A stretch of 64,000 nt of DNA from an uncultured Acidobacteriota bacterium (GCA_963723005.1 CAVRPA010000008.1:584479-648478), one strand, 5' to 3'. Shown: positions 10,866-58,363, counted from the first letter of the stretch. A program made the numbers and translations. The notes: generated by a model not told the origin, from the letters alone.

Positions 10866-13796
10866 TCACTGCACTTTCAGGCTCCAGATGCCCTGGCCGT
10901 GCGTGCCGGCGTAGAGGACGCCGCGCTCCGGGACGTAGACCAGATCCGCCACGGTGACGTTCGGCAGCCCCGCCGCCGTCGTGTGCCACACCGGCGAGTT
11001 CTTCTGTTTCTGCACCACGCCGAAGTCGTTGCCGACGTACAGCGTGCCCTTGGGGCTGACGATGATCGAGGTGGCGGGAATGTCGCCGAAGCCGTTGTTC
11101 CGCTGCCCATCGAGGTTGGTGAACGTGGCGCTGCCGCCACCGCCGGTCGGGGTGTAGCGGATCTCGAAGACGTGTCCCGGCGTGTCCGGGGTCTTCGCGT
11201 TGAAGCCGCTGTAGGTAATCCAGGCGTGGTTCGAGTCCTCGGGATCTACGAAGATGGACGTCGGGTAGCGAGGCGGATCGTTCGGCGCGAGGCTGTCGAG
11301 GCGAGTGAACTGCACTGAGGCCGGGTTGGCGGCATCGGCATTCGTCGAGATGAAGACGCGTCCGGTGCTGGTCGCCACCCATAGCGTCGAGGTGTCGGCC
11401 CGTCCGCGCTCCACCACCGACACCGAGCCACCGGCGCGGTCGCCGTACCCGGGGTCGGTCAGGCGGCCGGCCGCCCCGGATTGCCCAACGGCTGGAAGTC
11501 GTCGCAGATGTCGACGGTGGGCTGATAGACGCCGTTCTCGTCGATGTCGCCGTCACCCGTCCACACGTTGCAGTGTTCCAGCACGTTGTCGCGTGGGAAG
11601 GCGGGGTTCAGGCCGTAGTTCCTCGAGCGGAACACATGCTCGCGGCCGTGCCACATCCACCCCGGCTGGACCGGATCGGTGATCGCGTTGCCGATGAACG
11701 GCACCTGTTCGCCGCCGTAGAACACGAACATGGTGTCGGAGACCCACGTGATGTCGGTCTGGTTCTGCGGCGTGAAGCTCACCTCGAGCTGACCCTGCTG
11801 CCAGGCTGTCATGCGGAAGGCGGGGTTGCCGCCGAGCGCGTCGTAGGCATTGTGGCCGCCGTCGGCGATGTTGGTGTTCAGCCAGGTGGTGCCGCCGAGG
11901 GTTTCCCAGGACCCGTTGTCCTGAGTGCCCCCGGTAATGATGTCGGGGTTGGCCTTGTTGTATTCGACCTGGTAGAAGTGCAGCGTTCGCAGCCCGTTGT
12001 TGATGGCCTGCAGGCGCTCCGGGATGCGCGCGAGCACGAGCTGGCAGAACGCCAGCCGTGCGGCATTGGTGATGCCCTTGATGGTGGCGCAGTCGCCCGA
12101 GTCGTCCACGAAGACGCCGTTCGAGCGGATGATGCCGCCGTCCCCCACGTCGAAGAACTGGCGCCAGTTTCCGGGGTTCGTGACGATCGCGTGATGATCC
12201 GGATGCGCCTGCACCGGGTAGAAGTTGTCCGAGGCGTCCTCGGTCATGTCCGTGAAGTGCACGCCCGCGTTGGTGGAGAGCAGGATGCCGCGGCCGTTCG
12301 AGCGGCCCGTGACGTAGTTGTTCTCGTTGTACTCGTAGTCGCCGACCAGGTACACCGTATTGGCGTCGGCGCCTGGCGGCACGTAGACGTAGTTGTCGTA
12401 CGAGCACTGACCGTCGCAATAGCCGAAGCTCGAGTACCCGGCAGGGTCCGCCGCCACGTTGCTGCTGGTGAGGTCAATCCACGCCACCGCGGCGGCAGCC
12501 GGGCCTCGCACGGCATCGCTACGGCGGAAGCGAGCGTACTGGGCAACCGCGGGGGGGCCGAGCGAGGACGCCGCCTCCGACACCGACGTACATCCGCGTC
12601 TCATCGCCGAGCTGCACCACGTCGAACTCGGCCCGCTCGGTGGTGCCGACGGGACCAACCGGCGCCATGATCTGTTCCCAGTTGTCGCCGAGGTCGCGCG
12701 ACCGCCAGATACCGCGCGCAAAGAAGGAGACGTAGACGGTGTTCGCATCCACCGGGTCGAACATGACGCGCCGCGCCCCGCGTGGGCCACACGGGGTCTG
12801 ATTGAGTGCCACCTGATCGGGCGTCGACGCGGTGCACAGCGCCAGGGCGCCCTGGTTGACCAGTTCCCAGCTGCCGCCGCCGTTCAGCGAGCGATACAGG
12901 CCGAAATGCGGCGCGCCCGGGATCAGGGCATCCACGCCGCCGCAGCAGGTGTTCGACACGCCCAGCACGCCGCGGCCAGACGCCGCGAAGATCACCTGAG
13001 AATTGCCCGGCTGCACTGCGATGGAGCCCACGGCGCGGCCGGCGAACTGCGCGGTGCCATAGGGGCCCTGCCACGATCTCCCGCCATTGGTGCTCTTGTA
13101 GAGCCCGACGCCCGCGGTGCAGCCGCTGCCGCAGGCATTCGGCTCGCCGGTGCCGGCCCACAGGGTGTTCGAGCCTGGATCGTTCGGGTCGAGCGTCAGC
13201 TCGGCGACGTTGTTGTGCTCGAAGGTGTGAGACTGGAACTCCCACGCCGGTTCCGGCGCCAGCGCATCGCTGGTCATCCAGACGCCGCCGTTGGCGTTGG
13301 CGAGCCACAGGCGGCAGTCGCCCGACACGCAGGCCGGATCGATCGCGGCGGCGATGGTGCGGCCGCTGAAGTTCTCGGTCCCGGCGTTGTAGACGGACCG
13401 GTCCCGGTAGGGGTTCTCCGCCGACAGCCCGTTCACCGGTCCCTGGGCTGTCCAGGCGCCGCCGCCGACCGCGGGCCGTGCCTTCAGCCCGCGCCAGTCG
13501 TTCCGTGCACCGGCGAAGGCCGCGAACGGAATGTCGAGGCCCGGGGTCGAGTGCTCGATCCAGTCCTGCACGCCCGGGCCGCCGGCGCGTTCCTCGTACA
13601 GACTGGCCGCGCCTGGCGAAAAGGTGGCCATCGCGGCGAACTTCCTCGCGAGGCCGACGGGCAGCTTCTTCAGCCGACCCTGTGACTCAATCGCCGCATC
13701 GGCGGGAGCCGCCGGGACAGCCCGATCGAGGGCAAGTGGGGAAACCAGTGCCGTCAGCGCGACGGCGAAAGCGCCAACGTAGAGCCGCTTCTGCAT
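10866..13796 (-). pseudogene. large secreted BNR/Asp-box (sortilin/VPS10-like beta-propeller) protein split into three frames
   Basis: Signal peptide MQKRLYVGAFAVALTALVS with an [11 protein letters not shown]. Asp-box variants 'KSTNGGRSWQ', 'RSLNGGGSWE' and 'LSTNAGVHFT'. ORFs 12519..13796, 11459..12790 and 10866..11423 join colinearly, with frame changes at about 12550 (G7 run) and about 11460. Confidence 0.6.
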
Positions 13797-13915
13797 GCGT
13801 TCTCTCCTTCAGGCGGGGGCATTGTGATGACGGAAAGGAGAGGTTTATACCTTTCCGCAAGGAGAGGTCAACTGCGAAGGTTGTGATCGCGAGGCCGAGG
13901 CCGCGCGGCGCCCCT

Positions 13916-15854: not shown

Positions 15855-15906
15855 GCGGATAGCGTCGGGAGGCGGGAGTCGGGAGTCGAGCGCCCAAGCC
15901 TCAAGC
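15855..15906. repeat. seven phased heptads (GAGGCGG/GAGTCGG/GAGTCGA ... AGCCTCA) filling a convergent spacer
   Basis: Read directly between the crotonase stop (15852-15854) and the transporter stop (15907-15909). Confidence 0.55.
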
Positions 15907-17151: not shown

Positions 17152-20035
17152 CTAGGGCTCCTCGAGGAGAGATCGGATCAGGACGGCGGGATGCGTGGCC
17201 TGCACGCCGGTGAAGTGGGCCACCTGGTGGCGGCACGAAGTGCCCGCCGCGGCCAGCACCCCGCCGGCCGGCAGGGCGCGCGCCGCCGGCAGCAGCTTCC
17301 GCTCGCCGATGGCCTGCGACACGCCGTAGTGATCGCAGGAGTAGCCGAACGAGCCGGCCATGCCGCAGCAGCCGGCATCGAGATCGGTGACCGTGGCGCC
17401 CGGGATGCGCCGGAGCAGCGCCGCGGCCGAGGCGCCGAGGCCCATCGACCGCTGGTGACAGTGCACGTGCAGCAGCACGTCGGACGGCCCGCCGGCCAGA
17501 GGCAGCGTCGCTCGCCCCGCGCCGACTTCGCGCTCCAGGTACTCCTCGAACAGGACGGATTGCCTGGCGACGACCTGGGCCTTCTCGCGCAGCGATCCCG
17601 CCAGGAGATCGGGGGCGTCCTCCCTGATGGCCGAGAGGCAGCTGGGCTCCACGAACACGATCGCCTGACCTTGCGACGCGCGGGGAAACAACGCCGCGAC
17701 GTTGCGGGCCGCCAGGTCGCGGGCGTCACCTAACAGGCCCTGCGAGATGAGTGGCCGTCCGCAGCACACGTGCGGCGCCAGCGCCGCGCCGATCCCGGCG
17801 CGGTCGAGCACCTCGAACGCGGCGACGCCAATCTCCGGCTCGACGTGCGAGGTGAACGTATCGGCGAACAGCACGGCGCGAGGCTCCGGCGTGCGCGCCC
17901 GCACGCCATTCAGTTGCGCACGCAAGGTGCGCCGGGCCCACTGCGGCGGCAGCCGGCGTCGGTCGATGCCCAGCATCGATTCGCCCAACCGCCGTCCCAG
18001 AGTGCTCGCCGAGATCGCGTTCACGATCGGGGCGAAGGCGCTGCCCCAACCAGCCAGCTCGTTGATGCGGCCGAAAGCCTGCACTTTGAGCGGCATCGCA
18101 TGGCGTTGCCAGTAGCCGGCCAGGAACTCGCTCTTGTAGCGGCCCACGTCCACGCCCACCGGGCACTCGCTCTTGCAGGCGCGGCACTCGAGACACAGGT
18201 CGAGTACCGCGTGGACGCCCTGATCGTCGAGCCCCGCCTCCGCCAGCCGTCCGCTGGTGGCCAGCCGCAGCACGTTGGCCCGGCCGCGAGTGGAGTGCGC
18301 CTCCTCGCGGGTGACCATGAACGACGGGCACATCGTGCCGTCGCGCGTTTTGCGGCACGCGCCGACGCCGCTGCACATCTCGACCGCGCGGCCGAAGCCG
18401 CCGAACGACGCGTAGTCGAAGAAGGTGGCCGGGTTGGGCGTCTGGTAGCCGGCGCCGTAGCGCAGGTGCGAGGTGATCGGCGGCGTGTCAACGATGCGCC
18501 CGGGGTTGAAGAGCCCCTGAGGATCGAAGGTCCGCTTCACGGTGCGGAACGCCTGGTATAGCTCTGTCCCGAACATCTGCTCGTTGAAGGCGCCGCGGAC
18601 CAGGCCGTCGCCGTGCTCGCCGGAGAGCGAGCCGCCGTATTCGAGGACCAGCTCCGCGACTTCCCGGGCGATCGACTCGAACCGGGCCACACCGTCGGCG
18701 GTCTTCAGGTCGATGACTGGCCGCACGTGGAGACAGCCGACCGAAGCATGGGCGTAGATGCCGGCGGCGGTCTGGTGGCGCTCGAGGACGCGGAGAAACC
18801 GTGCGATGTAGGCGCGCAGGTGCTCGGGCGCGACGGCGGTGTCCTCGACGAACGACACCGCCTTGCCGTCGCCCTTCATCGCCATCGACAGCCCGAGCGC
18901 GGCCTCGCGCAGGCTCCACACCTTCGCCTGAGCGCCGGCGTCGGTCAACGCGCGCGTGCGGCACGCGACGCCGCTCGCTCGCAGGTCGTGCTCGAGCGCC
19001 TCGAGCCGCGCCGGCAGCTCGTCGGCCTGATCGGCATAGAACTCGATGCAGAGCAGCGCCGAGCCGTCGCGCTGCACGATGGTCCGGCGGAGCGCGTCGA
19101 GGCCGGCGTTGTCGCGCGTGTGCCGCAGGATGAAGTCGTCCATCACCTCCACGGCGGCGGGACCGTGCCGGAGCACCAGCGGCGTTGCGCCGAGCGCGTC
19201 CAGCAAGTCGTCGAACTCCGCCGTCAGCAGCGCCTTTGCCCTGGGCAGCGGCACCAGACCCACCGTGGCTTCGATCACGAAGCCCAGGGTGCCTTCCGAG
19301 CCGACGATGATGCGCGAGAGATCCACGGGTTGCGCAGGATCGACGAAGGCGTCGAGGTTGTAGCCGCCGACGCGTCGCAGGAGCTTGGGGAAGCGACGCT
19401 CGATCTCACTCGCGTGGGCCTGCGCCAGCGAGGGGATCGCCCGGTACGCATCACCCTCGATGCCCTGTGCGGCGCAGGCGATGGCCAGATCTGCCGCGCT
19501 CAACGGACGGAGATGCGCCACACGGGCATCGGCCAGCACCACCTGCAGATCGCGAACGTGATCGATGGTCTTACCGTAGACGACCGAGCGGGCGCCGCTC
19601 GAGTTGTTCGCGATCATCCCGCCGACGGTGGCGCGGCTGGACGACGACACGTCCGGCGCGAAGCGGAGGTGATGTGGCTTGAGCGCGGCGTTCAGGTCGT
19701 CGAGCACCACGCCGGGCTGCTACCCGAGCCGTGCGCGCCTCCGGATCGATCGCGAGGACGCGGTTGAGGTACTTCGAGGTGTCGAGCACCAGTCCGGCGC
19801 CAATCGCCTGGCCGGCCTGCGAGGTGCCGCCCCCGCGCGGCGTCAGCGAAACGCCGTGACGGGCCGCCATCGCCACCGTCCGCACGACGTCGTCTGGGGA
19901 GCGCGGGACGATGACCCCGCGCGGCTCGATCTGATAGACGCTGGCGTCGGTCGCATACAGCGCGCGTGACGCGGCATCGAAGCGGACCTCGCCGTCGAGC
20001 ACGGCGCGGAGGTCGCGTTGCAGGAGATCGCTCAC
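17152..20035 (-). pseudogene. fused FAD-binding (GlcD/D-lactate dehydrogenase-like) and Fe-S (GlcF-like, CCG domain) oxidase with one frame disruption near 19720
   Basis: N-terminal ORF 19571..20035 (FAD PCMH domain, 'PRGGGTSQAGQ') and ORF 17152..19710 are colinear. The latter carries 'LCLECRACKSECP' 4Fe-4S and C-terminal 'CCG' motifs. Removing one base from GGGTAGCAG gives ...ARVQPGVVLDDLNAAL. Confidence 0.8.
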
Positions 20036-20107
20036 GCGGCGAGCGACCCCGACTGCGCGCTCGCGACGAATCCGATTCGCGGCTGGTCCATGAGCGGACC
20101 GATTGTA

Positions 20108-20142
20108 TTCCGCCTTCGGCCTTTTGCCTTGCGCCTTTCGCC
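20108..20142. repeat. five phased heptads TTnnGCC (TTCCGCC TTCGGCC TTTTGCC TTGCGCC TTTCGCC)
   Basis: Read directly in the spacer between the selenoprotein gene and the FAD/Fe-S oxidase gene. The same unit type closes the array at 20534-20561. Confidence 0.6.
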
Positions 20143-20176
20143 GAGTGGTGTCGCGCCCCTGAATCTGTCGGATGAC

Positions 20177-20407
20177 TCAGGAGGCCAGCGCGGCTCGTAC
20201 CGCCTGCACGACCTGGTCTTCCGCGGGGAAACCGGTCTTGCTTTTCTGCGCGACCACGTGATCGCCCACGCGGACGGAGAACTCGCCGCGGGCGCCTTCG
20301 ACCACGGCCGGATCGACACCCGTCGCTGCCTTGATGAGCGCGGCCACACGGGTCGCGCGCGGAAGGTAGTTTCAGACGCGGCAGTAACGGATTTCGATCT
20401 GGGGCAT
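20177..20407 (-). CDS. SelW/Rdx-family selenoprotein (CxxU), 76 residues with in-frame UGA at 20374..20372
   Basis: Minus-strand translation: MPQIEIRYCRV-U-NYLPRATRVAALIKAATGVDPAVVEGARGEFSVRVGDHVVAQKSKTGFPAEDQVVQAVRAALAS. The total is 231 nt, a multiple of 3. GAGG lies 4 nt upstream of the ATG. The Rdx-family pattern IxYCxxU...RA...L......GxFxVxV....K.TGxFP is present. Confidence 0.75.
20338..20360 (-). promoter_or_regulatory. putative bacterial SECIS hairpin
   Basis: RNA GCGCGCGACC-CGUGU-GGCCGCGC begins 11-12 nt after the UGA. GC-rich stem with two bulges and a G/U-containing apical loop. Folded by eye only. Confidence 0.4.
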
Positions 20408-20428
20408 AGGGCCTCGGGGGGGAAGACT

Positions 20429-20565
20429 GGTCTTAGGTCTTAGGTCTTAGGGTCTTGGGGCTTGGGGCTTGGGGCTTGGGGCTCGGGGCTTGGGGCTTGA
20501 GGCTCGAGACTTGCGGCCGTCTGCCGACTGCCGTTTTGCCTTCTGCCTTTAGCCTTTTGCCTTCC
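20429..20565 (-). repeat. array of about 19 phased heptads filling the whole spacer upstream of the selenoprotein gene
   Basis: Plus strand reads (GGTCTTA)x3, GGGTCTT, (GGGGCTT)x5 plus one GGGGCTC, GAGGCTC, GAGACTT, then TnTGCCn units. On the gene (minus) strand the order is AAGGCAA-type > AAGCCCC > AAGACCC > TAAGACC > start codon. Confidence 0.85.
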
Positions 20566-21683
20566 TACTGACTTTTCCCCCTGGCCGCAATCGGCCACAC
20601 GGCTTCGACCACATTACCGCGAAGCGCGTGAATCTGATCGTACAGGTTGACCGTGGGATCGCAGTGCGGCGGCACGAACTCGAGGCGGTCGCCGACCCTG
20701 ACGTCGCGGTCGACGTTGGTGAGGTCGAGCCGGCCGTGTTCGTCGCCGGCCCACGAATAGACCGCGCCGGGCAGGTCCACGGCGACGGGGGTGAACGGCC
20801 GGTCGGTGGCGAACGCCTTGTACCCGGCGTCCACAATCGCCAGTCCCGGGCGGCGGGAGATGACGGTCGCCACCACGGTGAGCGCCTGCTCGAAGTCGCG
20901 GTAGTCGGTGTTGTCCGGCCCGCCGATCTGGCCGTACTCCATGTCCATGAAGATGAAGCTGCCCGGCTGGATCTCGGTGACGCCGTCGATCTCGGCGTCG
21001 ATCCGGTAGGTGCCCGTCGATCCTCCCGTGACCAGCGGACAGTCGATGCCGGCGCGCTCGATCATCCGCCGGGTCTCCACCGCCTGCTTCATGCTGCCGC
21101 TGGTGCGCGTCCGGCGCGCGTCGAACGGCGCCGTGTGCGCGGCCGCCCCGTCGTAGGACTGCAGGCCGACGAACCGCACGCGCGGCTGGCGGGTGATGAA
21201 GCGCGTCAGGTCCAGGGCCGGCGCTCCGGGCGAAATGCCGGTGCGGCCGAAGTGCAGGTCCACGGCCAGGTTCACCTCGACGCCGGGAAACCGGCCGGCG
21301 GCGTCGCTCAGCTCGCGCACGTTCTGCTCGGATTCGACGATGAAGATCGTGTCGGGCGCGATCCGGGCCAGCTCCAGGGCCCGCTCGATCTTCCCCGCGC
21401 CAACCACCGCCGTCGTGATCAGCAGTCCCCGGATGCCGTGCGCCGCGAACACCTCCGCCTCGCTCAGGCGGGCGGTGCAGACGCCCACGGCTCCCGCCGC
21501 GATCAGGCGCCGGGCGATTTCCGGGCACTTGTGCGTCTTGCCATGGGGCCGGAACGCCTTGCCCCGCTCTCGCAGGAACCCCGTCATACGGGTGACATTG
21601 GCTTCGAACCGGTCCAGGTCCAGCAGCAGGGCAGGGGTGGGCACATTCGTCGCGGAACCGCATGGGCGCGGGCATGCTAGCAC
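20565..21683 (-). CDS. DSD1-family PLP-dependent enzyme (alanine-racemase-fold D-serine/D-threo-3-hydroxyaspartate dehydratase or D-threonine aldolase-like)
   Basis: '[13 protein letters not shown]...[15 protein letters not shown]' carries the PLP-lysine context. C-terminal 'EHGRLDL...[19 protein letters not shown]' is present. Confidence 0.75.
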
Positions 21684-21700
21684 TACTTCCGGGGAGCGGC

Positions 21701-23539
<1,839 letters not shown>

Positions 23540-23658
23540 GAAATCAGGGATCAGGGATCAGGGATCAGGGATCAGGGATCAGGAGCTCAAGCCCCAAGCC
23601 CCAAGCCCCAAGCCCCAAGCCCCAAGCCCCAAGCCCCAAGCCCCAAGCCTCAAGACCC
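23540..23658 (+). repeat. 17 phased heptads filling the lepA-lepB spacer: GAAATCA, (GGGATCA)x5, GGAGCTC, (AAGCCCC)x8, AAGCCTC, AAGACCC
   Basis: Counted base by base from the lepA stop (23537-23539) to 2 nt before the lepB ATG (23661). Confidence 0.9.
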
Positions 23659-58300: not shown

Positions 58301-58363
58301 AGGCCCCAAGCCCCAAGCCCCAAGCCCCAAGCCTCAAGACTCAAGACCCAAGACCCAAGACCT
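58301..58363 (+). repeat. nine phased heptads AGGCCCC, (AAGCCCC)x3, AAGCCTC, AAGACTC, (AAGACCC)x2, AAGACCT
   Basis: Counted from 6 nt after the stop (58293-58295) to 2 nt before the ATG at 58366. Confidence 0.85.

What the first reader, a model, noticed from the sequence alone, without database searches (positions are those of the whole stretch)
20177..20407. Hidden SelW/Rdx-family selenoprotein gene with a CxxU motif encoded by in-frame TGA
- Reading the minus strand from ATG 20407 gives MPQIEIRYCRV-[TGA 20374..20372]-NYLPRATRVAALIKAATGVDPAVVEGARGEFSVRVGDHVVAQKSKTGFPAEDQVVQAVRAALAS-stop (20179..20177). That is 77 codons.
- With UGA read as selenocysteine, the N-terminus becomes I-x-Y-C-R-V-U-x-x-x-P-R-A. 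This is the CxxU redox motif at the position where the Rdx (SelW/SelT/SelH) thioredoxin-like family carries CxxC/CxxU.
- The C-terminal half keeps the family pattern G-x-F-x-V-x-V ... K-x-x-T-G-x-F-P.
- A GC-rich hairpin with a G/U apical loop starts 11-12 nt after the UGA (20360..20338), where a bacterial SECIS is expected.
- GAGG lies 4 nt upstream of the ATG.
- An ORF caller truncates this gene to 11 codons. The only ORF-track entries here (20018..20443 +, 20032..20349 -) translate to Arg/Ser/Pro-rich junk.
- The family is known, but the gene would be missed by standard annotation. It lies directly upstream of an FAD/Fe-S oxidase on the same strand.
Basis: partly seen in the sequence, partly recalled or inferred. 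Interest (0 to 1): 0.75.

Follow-up and report, generated by a model that had tools for sequence, protein, structure and literature searches.

The report
Hidden SelW-like selenoprotein gene, confirmed
A 76-codon gene for a small thioredoxin-like redox protein uses an in-frame UGA for selenocysteine, so gene callers truncate it; it is real, but it belongs to a selenoprotein family described about twenty years ago.

Summary
On the minus strand, ATG 20407 to stop 20177 encodes a 76-residue protein with an in-frame TGA at 20374..20372.

- **Family:** with U read as C it matches Pfam Rdx end to end (43.8 bits against a cutoff of 22.6) and TIGR02174 CXXU_selWTH.
- **TGA conservation:** all 65 related loci that cover the site carry TGA there, never TAA or TAG. 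They are mostly Acidobacteriota of the order Vicinamibacterales.
- **Coding signal:** protein-level conservation starts at the ATG and runs across the TGA.
- **Cys forms:** distant homologues have TGC at the same codon.
- **Genetic code:** TGA is a normal stop for 8 of 21 other genes in the window.
- **Hairpin:** a hairpin at 20358..20338 follows the UGA. Its stability is unremarkable in this GC-rich DNA, but its third-codon-position pairs covary, and the loop-closing C:G pair sits on two four-fold-degenerate sites that never vary in 52 unique sequences. Low-GC relatives have a hairpin at the same distance.

I could not test whether the genome encodes selA, selB, selC and selD; none lies in the window.

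Bacterial SelW-like CxxU selenoproteins have been known since 2005, so this is a new member of a known kind and of modest interest. Side observations: a possible UxxU relative, intergenic heptamer repeats, and a one-base frameshift in the neighbouring oxidase.

The parts
20177..20407 (-). Full coding sequence of the SelW-like/Rdx selenoprotein: 76 residues plus the stop, MPQIEIRYCRV-U-NYLPRATRVAALIK...AALAS
   Evidence: Translation. Pfam Rdx 43.8 bits over profile 1-73 of 74. TIGR02174 37.3 bits against a cutoff of 34.2. Sequence matches to solved Rdx-fold proteins 3dex, 2fa8, 2ljk and 2p0g.
20412..20415 (-). Shine-Dalgarno-like GAGG, 4 nt upstream of the ATG
   Evidence: Read directly. Purine-rich stretches occur at a similar place in several relatives, but this was not tested statistically.
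20405..20407 (-). Start codon ATG
   Evidence: Column entropy falls from about 1.9 bits to under 1 bit exactly at this codon. ATG or GTG is present in 42 of 52 unique relatives.
20381..20383 (-). TGC, the Cys of the CxxU redox motif (residue 9)
   Evidence: Cys in 52 of 52 unique Sec-form sequences. It aligns with the first Cys of CxxC in 3dex and 2fa8.
20372..20374 (-). In-frame TGA read as selenocysteine (residue 12)
   Evidence: TGA in all 65 related loci that cover the site, never TAA or TAG. TGC in the Cys-form homologues L022, L025, L026, L027 and L028. It aligns with the second Cys of CxxC in solved structures.
20338..20358 (-). Putative bacterial SECIS hairpin. 5' arm 20358..20351, loop CGUGU 20350..20346, 3' arm 20345..20338. 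The stem starts 13 nt after the UGA and has one A.C mismatch. Energy is -9.5 kcal/mol in this register.
   Evidence: RNAalifold recovers it independently. Third-codon-position pairs are 95% paired against 79+-2% in shuffles; covariation is 0.417 against 0.122, reached by 0 of 500 shuffles. Loop-closing C24:G30 is invariant at four-fold-degenerate sites in 52 unique sequences.
20177..20347 (-). The 56-aa GTG-start ORF that gene callers report in place of the real gene (an annotation artefact)
   Evidence: Public homologues are almost all called at 53-60 aa, starting just after the TGA.
17152..20092 (-). Downstream same-strand FAD/Fe-S oxidase (FAD_binding_4, FAD-oxidase_C, Fer4, CCG). It is split in this window by a 1-nt insertion at about 19721. 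The upper coordinate is the top of the tblastn-matched N-terminal fragment; the true start codon was not determined.
   Evidence: Pfam. The three reading frames. Alignment to five relatives that lack the extra base. The gene is intact at 960 aa in a contig that carries the identical 56-aa Rdx ORF product (L080).

Best explanation
Window 20407..20177 (-) is a functional gene for a 76-residue SelW-like (Rdx family) selenoprotein of a soil acidobacterium. The nearest relatives are Vicinamibacterales.

The ribosome starts at ATG 20407 and translates beta-strand 1 (IEIRY) and Cys9. At UGA 20374..20372, SelB carrying Sec-tRNA(Sec) inserts selenocysteine. SelB is recruited by the mRNA hairpin at 20358..20338, which lies inside the coding sequence for P-R-A-T-R-V-A-A-L.

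The product is a small thioredoxin-like protein. Its C9-R-V-U12 motif would cycle between a selenol/thiol pair and a selenenylsulfide, acting as a thiol-dependent oxidoreductase.

- **Shown here:** family membership, conservation of TGA and of the coding frame across it, Cys/Sec alternation among homologues, and RNA-level constraint on the hairpin.
- **Inferred:** actual Sec insertion, SelB binding, redox chemistry and the physiological substrate. The substrate is unknown for every bacterial member of the family.
For: 1. **Family.** Pfam Rdx 43.8 bits against 22.6, full length across the TGA. TIGR02174 is above its cutoff. Seven solved Rdx-fold proteins match at phmmer E <= 1; the alignments printed for the top two (3dex, 2fa8) place C9 and U12 on their CxxC.
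2. **TGA conserved.** 21 of 21 genome loci and every metagenome locus that covers the site have TGA, 65 loci and 47 unique 54-mers in all, with no TAA or TAG.
3. **Coding across the stop.** Per-codon entropy shows coding periodicity and strong conservation from codon -11 (the start) through the TGA. Cys at -3 is invariant, as are Pro+4, Ala+6 and Arg+8.
4. **Cys forms exist.** CxxC forms with TGC occur in more distant homologues.
5. **Standard code.** TGA ends 8 of the 21 other genes checked in the window (19 with Pfam support, 2 identified by eye), so the code is standard.
6. **Hairpin, main clade.** RNAalifold finds it. Pair 21-33 is CG26/GC7/UG6/GU1/UA1 and pair 18-36 is CG31/GC3/UG2/GU1. 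Both pairs join synonymous third positions. No shuffle of 500 reaches the observed covariation. The four-fold sites at columns 24 and 30 have zero entropy, against 1.1-1.7 bits at other four-fold sites.
7. **Hairpin, low-GC relatives.** L024 keeps an 87.5%-GC hairpin in a 40%-GC contig. The marine clade L072-L075 has an unrelated 7-bp hairpin with a GGA loop at the same distance.
8. **Literature.** SelW-like CxxU proteins are an established, abundant bacterial selenoprotein family (PMC1088965, PMC1794560, PMC13188914).
Against: - No selA, selB, selD or tRNA-Sec gene was seen in the window or in about 0.54 Mb of related loci. This is uninformative for whole genomes but leaves a defining requirement untested.
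- The window's hairpin alone is no more stable than shuffled sequence.
- Part of the hairpin is a by-product of Ala codons (GCN) on both arms. Two of five Cys forms that encode PRAARVAE keep 6-7 of the 8 pairs, so the Cys-form negative control is only partly clean.
- Much of the covariation at pair 21-33 may trace to a few clade-level events.
- Rfam returns no SECIS hit.
- No experimental evidence of selenium incorporation exists for this clade.
Confidence: 0.9

Rival explanations
1. The UGA is recoded without selenium. Near-cognate suppression, for example by tRNA-Trp or tRNA-Cys, would give a CxxW or CxxC protein in organisms that lack the Sec machinery.
For: The Sec machinery was not found in any held sequence. 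Some public gene calls translate this TGA as W (P0051 and P0161), but those are code-4-style calls, not evidence of Trp insertion.
Against: - TGA is a frequent genuine stop in the window.
- The codon aligns with a catalytic Cys, where Trp would destroy the redox motif.
- The hairpin immediately downstream is under RNA-level constraint, which simple leaky suppression does not need.
- The family is a known selenoprotein family (PMC1088965).
Confidence: 0.04
2. The TGA is a true stop. The locus is either a decayed pseudogene or the real gene is the 56-aa GTG ORF at 20347..20177, and the upstream 11 codons are not translated together with it.
For: All automated gene calls report the 56-aa ORF. The neighbouring oxidase carries a frameshift in this window, so sequence errors or decay occur locally.
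Against: - The 11 upstream codons are conserved with coding periodicity in 52 unique sequences, and conservation begins exactly at an ATG/GTG.
- The stop is always TGA across phylum-level diversity.
- A 56-aa product would lack beta-strand 1 and the whole redox motif of the Rdx fold.
- The stop cannot be a sequencing error, because it recurs in 65 independent assemblies.
Confidence: 0.03
3. The conserved hairpin is only a by-product of the conserved peptide P-R-A-x-R-V-A-A in a high-GC genome and is not the SECIS. The true Sec-insertion signal, if there is one, lies elsewhere.
For: First and second positions of the Ala codons on the two arms pair automatically. Cys forms L025 and L026 keep 7 and 6 of the 8 pairs. 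Single-sequence z-scores are not significant.
Against: - Pairs that involve only synonymous third positions still covary, with 0 of 500 shuffles reaching the observed score.
- Four-fold sites C24 and G30 are frozen.
- The hairpin persists as a GC island in the 40%-GC contig L024, and a hairpin of unrelated sequence lies at the same offset in the 30-34%-GC clade L072-L075.
- Three of five Cys forms lose it, with energies of -4.5, +3.3 and -2.1 kcal/mol against a Sec-form mean of -11.6.
Confidence: 0.1

Closest known systems
Bacterial SelW-like selenoproteins (Pfam PF10262 Rdx; TIGR02174 CXXU_selWTH). Described by Zhang, Gladyshev and colleagues in 2005-2008 and listed as the 'SELENOW-like protein, CxxU, 1 Sec' in the 2026 review PMC13188914.
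   Same: Same domain and same CxxU position, with a UGA-encoded Sec followed by an in-ORF hairpin that has G in a small apical loop. Size is about 75-80 residues. Sec forms predominate in the clade, with few Cys homologues, as PMC1794560 reports for this family.
   Different: Nothing categorical. This is a Vicinamibacterales (Acidobacteriota) soil lineage. The SECIS lies on the conserved PRAxRVAAL coding segment. In this clade's public records the gene is systematically mis-called as a 56-aa ORF.
Cys-containing bacterial Rdx proteins with solved structures: SAV_2001 (3dex), Atu0228 (2fa8), the Vibrio 'selenoprotein W-related protein' (2p0g), 2ojl, 2oka and 2obk
   Same: Homologous over the whole length. 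The printed alignments (3dex, 2fa8) show the same I-x-Y-C-x-x-C/U motif followed by a Leu and R-A (P-R-A in 3dex), and a G-x-F-x-[VI] motif (GVFVV, GLFEI).
   Different: Those proteins have CxxC, not CxxU, are about 25-30 residues longer, and need no recoding.
Eukaryotic SELENOW, SELENOT, SELENOH, and MIEN1 (C17orf37, 2ljk)
   Same: Same Rdx thioredoxin-like fold family and CxxU/CxxC redox motif.
   Different: Eukaryotic members use a 3'-UTR SECIS with SBP2 and eEFSec. Here the signal lies inside the ORF, right after the UGA, as bacterial SelB requires (PMC1088965).
The E. coli fdhF SECIS, the paradigm bacterial SECIS (recalled from memory, not from a tool)
   Same: A stem-loop a short, fixed distance 3' of the UGA, inside the coding sequence, with G and U in a small apical loop.
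   Different: The stem starts 13 nt after the UGA here, against about 11 nt as I recall for fdhF. The loop is C-G-K-N-Y. A bulged U was not identified. Binding to SelB is untested.

Membership tests
Rdx family (Pfam PF10262) / TIGR02174 CXXU_selWTH | Full-length match to the family HMM above the curated cutoff | tested here: met
   PF10262 43.8 bits against 22.6, profile positions 1-73 of 74. TIGR02174 37.3 bits against 34.2.
Rdx family (Pfam PF10262) / TIGR02174 CXXU_selWTH | CxxC/CxxU redox motif directly after the first beta-strand | tested here: met
   I-R-Y-C9-R-V-U12 aligns with I-E-Y-C-T-Q-C of 3dex and I-R-Y-C-T-Q-C of 2fa8.
Bacterial SelW-like selenoprotein | In-frame UGA, not UAA or UAG, conserved in orthologues, with coding conservation on both sides | tested here: met
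   TGA in 65 of 65 loci. Entropy and periodicity table.
Bacterial SelW-like selenoprotein | Cys-containing homologues with Cys aligned to the UGA | tested here: met
   P0059, P0114, P0120, P0136 and P0172 carry TGC at the aligned codon (DNA read: L022/L023 and L025-L029); P0146, P0168 and P0171 show CxxC at the protein level only.
Bacterial SelW-like selenoprotein | Bacterial SECIS: a stem-loop just 3' of the UGA with G in a small apical loop | tested here: met
   Hairpin at columns 17-37, with loop G26 invariant (the second position of an invariant Arg codon, so the protein also fixes it). Supported by covariation at synonymous sites and frozen four-fold sites. Caveats: not significant from the single sequence alone, and partly mimicked in 2 of 5 Cys forms.
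Bacterial SelW-like selenoprotein | Genome encodes the Sec-decoding machinery: selA, selB, selC (tRNA-Sec) and selD | not testable with these tools
   None in the 64-kb window or in about 0.54 Mb of related loci.
Bacterial SelW-like selenoprotein | Selenium actually incorporated at the UGA | not testable with these tools
   This needs 75Se labelling or mass spectrometry. The 2026 review lists the prokaryotic family only as 'predicted with high confidence' (PMC13188914).
NF041051 SelTWH_Campy (equivalog) | Score at or above the 88-bit equivalog cutoff | tested here: not met
   57.4 bits against 88. It is related to this specific equivalog group but is not a member.

The most novel reading that the evidence does not exclude
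In Vicinamibacterales the Sec-containing Rdx protein could be a dedicated redox partner of the adjacent FAD/Fe-S (GlcD plus GlpC/CCG-type) 2-hydroxy-acid oxidase and the D-Ser-dehydratase-like enzyme, in a conserved cluster: DSD-like, Rdx, oxidase, MatC transporter. For example, it might re-reduce or protect the oxidase's CCG/Fe-S module. That would give the first physiological context for a bacterial SelW-like protein. The evidence does not exclude this. The cluster is kept in eight loci down to about 65% Rdx identity, and no minus-strand terminator lies between Rdx and the oxidase. However, more distant clades place Rdx next to unrelated genes, so the linkage may only reflect shared ancestry.
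Probability: 0.08. Interest if true: 0.5.

Novelty: new member of a known kind. Interest (0 to 1): 0.2.

Why it matters
**Annotation.** Gene callers systematically mis-call this gene in metagenome-assembled genomes. Nearly every public homologue appears as a 53-60-aa fragment that lacks its active site, so selenoprotein content is under-counted in an abundant soil lineage, Vicinamibacterales/Acidobacteriota. The conserved TGA plus hairpin gives a simple rule for repairing those annotations. It also implies that these aerobic soil bacteria maintain the selenocysteine machinery.

**Biology.** The finding adds no new mechanism. The SelW-like CxxU family and bacterial in-ORF SECIS elements are long established.

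Tried and rejected
1. **Single-sequence folding of the post-UGA region**. It is no better than shuffles in this 68%-GC DNA, so I dropped it as evidence and used comparative analysis instead.
2. **Rfam at gathering and permissive thresholds**. No SECIS or any credible RNA family was found.
3. **Search for Sec machinery.** ARAGORN on the window and 21 loci, Pfam on about 35 window ORFs, and tblastn with recalled E. coli SelD, SelB and SelA-core probes against all held DNA. Only LepA GTPase cross-hits appeared, which is uninformative.
4. **Other selenoprotein candidates in the window**, from same-frame abutting ORFs. The PilT gene simply ends in TGA and an independent amidohydrolase follows. The others end in TAG or TAA. 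Rejected.
5. **Alternative genetic code** (TGA as Trp or Gly). Rejected, because TGA terminates 8 of the 21 other genes checked, 19 of them with Pfam support.
6. **Cys forms as a negative control for the hairpin.** Only partly clean: 3 of 5 lose it and 2 of 5 keep most of it. This led me to restrict the test to third-codon-position pairs.
7. **Conserved gene neighbours as a clue to function.** Two separate synteny blocks exist in different clades with nothing shared, so no functional inference was drawn.
8. **Exhaustive profile search with the U-to-C sequence.** I repeated it with the exact post-TGA fragment as a profile.
9. **Structure prediction.** Not attempted, because the substituted full-length sequence is not admissible and the 64-aa fragment lacks beta-strand 1.

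Full report
**1. Observation**

GAGG lies at 20415..20412, 4 nt before the ATG.

The mechanical ORF list contains a 56-aa GTG-start ORF at 20177..20347 (-).

**2. Family**

With U replaced by C, the 76 residues match Pfam Rdx (PF10262) at 43.8 bits against a cutoff of 22.6. The match covers profile positions 1-73 of 74, so it crosses the TGA. NCBIfam TIGR02174 (CXXU_selWTH) scores 37.3 bits against a cutoff of 34.2. The Campylobacter equivalog NF041051 scores 57.4 bits, below its cutoff of 88.

A sequence search of the PDB finds seven Rdx-fold proteins: 3dex, 2fa8, 2ljk (MIEN1), 2ojl, 2p0g ('selenoprotein W-related'), 2oka and 2obk. The alignments printed for the top two (3dex, 2fa8) place C9 and U12 on their CxxC.

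**3. Is the TGA conserved and translated?**

- Of 37 database homologues, almost all are 53-63 aa and begin at the Val/Met just after the TGA position. An exhaustive profile search gives the same picture: 419 hits, most about 55-60 aa with the match starting at residue 1.
- Fetching DNA gave 21 genome loci and 46 metagenome loci. The genome loci are mostly Acidobacteriota/Vicinamibacterales, with some Haliangiales and other Deltaproteobacteria.
- Every locus that covers the site, 65 in all with 47 unique 54-mers, has TGA at the CxxU position and never TAA or TAG.
- In 52 unique sequences, column entropy is about 1.9 bits upstream of codon -11. It falls sharply at codon -11 (ATG or GTG in 42 of 52) and then shows coding periodicity through the TGA. 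Ile-6 reads 0.14/0/0.97 bits at the three codon positions. Cys-3 is invariant, as are Pro+4, Ala+6, Arg+8 and Ala+10.
- More distant homologues are true Cys forms. Five of them (P0059, P0114, P0120, P0136, P0172) have TGC at the aligned codon in their DNA; P0146, P0168 and P0171 show CxxC at the protein level only.
- Two public proteins with 'W' at this position are TGA in the DNA. One relative has a real TGG and has lost the Cxx residues, and another has GAG.
- TGA terminates 8 of the 21 other genes checked in the window, 19 of them with Pfam support, so the genetic code is standard.

**4. The hairpin**

Folding the window sequence alone is uninformative, with z-scores of +0.4 and -0.6 against shuffles. 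Rfam finds nothing.

Comparison shows more. Counting the U of UGA as column 1, RNAalifold on 22 sequences predicts pairs 18-21 with 33-36 and 23-24 with 30-31. The full helix, columns 17-24 with 30-37, is 88-89% paired, and its covariation score exceeds all 500 shuffles and all slid registers.

Because Ala codons (GCN) lie on both arms, first and second codon positions pair automatically. Two of five Cys forms that encode PRAARVAE keep 6-7 of the 8 pairs. I therefore tested only the three pairs that join third codon positions: 18-36, 21-33 and 24-30.

- They are 95.2% paired, against 78.7 +/- 2.1% in shuffles.
- The covariation score is 0.417 against 0.122, reached by 0 of 500 shuffles.
- Pair 21-33 occurs as CG 26, GC 7, UG 6, GU 1 and UA 1.
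- Pair 18-36 occurs as CG 31, GC 3, UG 2 and GU 1.

The loop-closing pair C24:G30 falls on two four-fold-degenerate sites that have zero entropy in 52 unique sequences. Other four-fold sites (Pro+4, Ala+6, Ala+10, Gly+18) have 1.1-1.7 bits.

| Set | Energy in the shared register (kcal/mol) |
|---|---|
| Window | -9.5 |
| 42 unique Sec forms | mean -11.6 |
| 5 Cys forms | -4.5, -11.0, -8.9, +3.3, -2.1 |

(All.)

Two low-GC groups give independent support. L024 is a 40%-GC contig that keeps GCCGCC-CGUGU-GGCGG at 87.5% GC. The marine-like clade L072-L075 (30-34% GC) has an unrelated 7-bp hairpin with a GGA loop at columns 20-36, the same distance from the UGA.

In window coordinates the element is 20358..20338, with the loop at 20350..20346. 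The stem starts 13 nt after the UGA and the loop starts 21 nt after it. As I recall the published bacterial SECIS model, that geometry is compatible with it. The papers available here state only the qualitative criterion of a small apical loop containing guanosine (PMC1088965).

**5. What could not be shown**

- No tRNA-Sec, selA, selB or selD lies in the window or in about 0.54 Mb of related loci. Whole genomes could not be scanned.
- Same-frame abutting ORFs elsewhere in the window are not selenoproteins.
- Incorporation of selenium is inferred, not shown.

**6. Context and function**

On the minus strand the order is:

1. a D-Ser-dehydratase-like / alanine-racemase-N protein (20568..21722);
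2. a 157-nt spacer made of heptamer repeats;
3. the Rdx gene;
4. an FAD/Fe-S oxidase of GlcD plus GlpC/CCG type;
5. a MatC/CitMHS transporter.

This order holds in the eight closest loci and in contigs that carry the identical 56-aa ORF product. A different block lies upstream of Rdx in another clade: a beta-lactamase-like hydrolase, an OMP beta-barrel protein and unknowns. No partner is conserved across clades.

The most likely function is the generic one proposed for the family: a thiol/selenol oxidoreductase that cycles through a Cys9-Sec12 selenenylsulfide. The substrate is unknown.

**7. Comparison with what is known, and novelty**

SelW-like CxxU proteins were the most abundant selenoprotein family in the Sargasso Sea data, with 48 genes (PMC1088965). 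They were found in ten genomes in 2006, and that study notes the family has few Cys homologues in Sec-using organisms, which suggests Sec is the ancestral form (PMC1794560). The 2026 review lists them as 'predicted with high confidence', with CxxU and one Sec (PMC13188914). Acidobacteria are known users of Sec (PMC1794560, PMC12013277).

This locus is therefore a new member of a known kind. The main value is for annotation, since the gene is truncated throughout public metagenome and MAG data.

**8. Verdict**

- Best explanation (a real SelW-like selenoprotein with an in-ORF SECIS): confidence 0.9.
- Interest: 0.2.

Noticed in passing
L024 58-288 (+); TGA at 82-84 and 91-93; hairpin 112-127 (NCBI GCA_020063875.1, JAITZF010463422.1): A distant Rdx relative reads I-R-H-TGA-M-V-TGA. 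The Cys position and the Sec position are both TGA, so this is a candidate UxxU Rdx selenoprotein. One GC-rich hairpin follows, in a 40%-GC contig. The 2026 review lists SELENOW-like proteins only with CxxU and one Sec. The contig is 438 nt, so a TGA=Trp organism cannot be excluded.
   Followed up: partly
window 20429-20564; also 15864-15888, 23543-23658 and 58303-58359: Intergenic spacers are filled with heptanucleotide tandem repeats: GGTCTTA, GGGGCTT x7.9, GCCTTCT, ATCAGGG, CAAGCCC x10, GCCCCAA x8. Relatives carry heptamer arrays with different units directly upstream of their Rdx genes (L010 CCTATTT, L016 AAGCGAA, L001 TCAAGAC). They resemble cyanobacterial STRR repeats. (GGGGCTT)n could form a G-quadruplex on the + strand. 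One full-text search found no paper on this for Acidobacteria.
   Followed up: partly
window about 19721 (minus-strand gene 17152..~20092): The FAD/Fe-S oxidase downstream of Rdx is broken by a single inserted base (GT-A-GCAG) that creates a TAG and a frameshift. Five relatives lack the extra base. A contig with the identical 56-aa Rdx ORF product has an intact 960-aa gene (L080), while L002 and L079 show other breaks. This is probably a long-read assembly indel and not a true pseudogene.
   Followed up: yes
L072-L075 (for example L072 TGA at 60-62): A low-GC (30-34%) clade of Sec-form Rdx genes (KYCPI-U-EGYDTRALEVSKEI) has a hairpin of quite different sequence, GGGCACU-GGA-AGUGUCU, at the same distance from the UGA as in the soil clade. 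It includes a G.U to A-U change between members.
   Followed up: partly
window 11459-13808 (-): Two long ORFs in different frames, 12519..13808 and 11459..12883, overlap by about 365 nt. The upstream ORF has no Pfam hit. This may be another indel-split gene.
   Followed up: no
L006 (CAZLBU010000005.1, labelled Bifidobacteriaceae) and L015 (CAWHWW010000001.1, labelled cyanobacterium): L006 shares the Vicinamibacterales-type synteny (DSD-like, Rdx, FAD/Fe-S oxidase, MatC, CoA-transferase) at about 80% protein identity to the window. L015 shares the second acidobacterial synteny block. Their taxonomic labels look like mis-binning or mislabelling.
   Followed up: no
L077 501-719 and L078 308-538: These are degenerate Rdx relatives. 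L077 has a genuine TGG at the Sec position and has lost the Cxx residues (IRH-W-GY). L078 has GAG (C-S-M-E). Both presumably lack redox activity.
   Followed up: partly
L008, L011, L013, L014, L015: about 3.5 kb upstream of Rdx: A second conserved same-strand block precedes Rdx in another acidobacterial clade: an unknown protein, a beta-lactamase-family serine hydrolase, an OMP beta-barrel protein and another unknown.
   Followed up: partly
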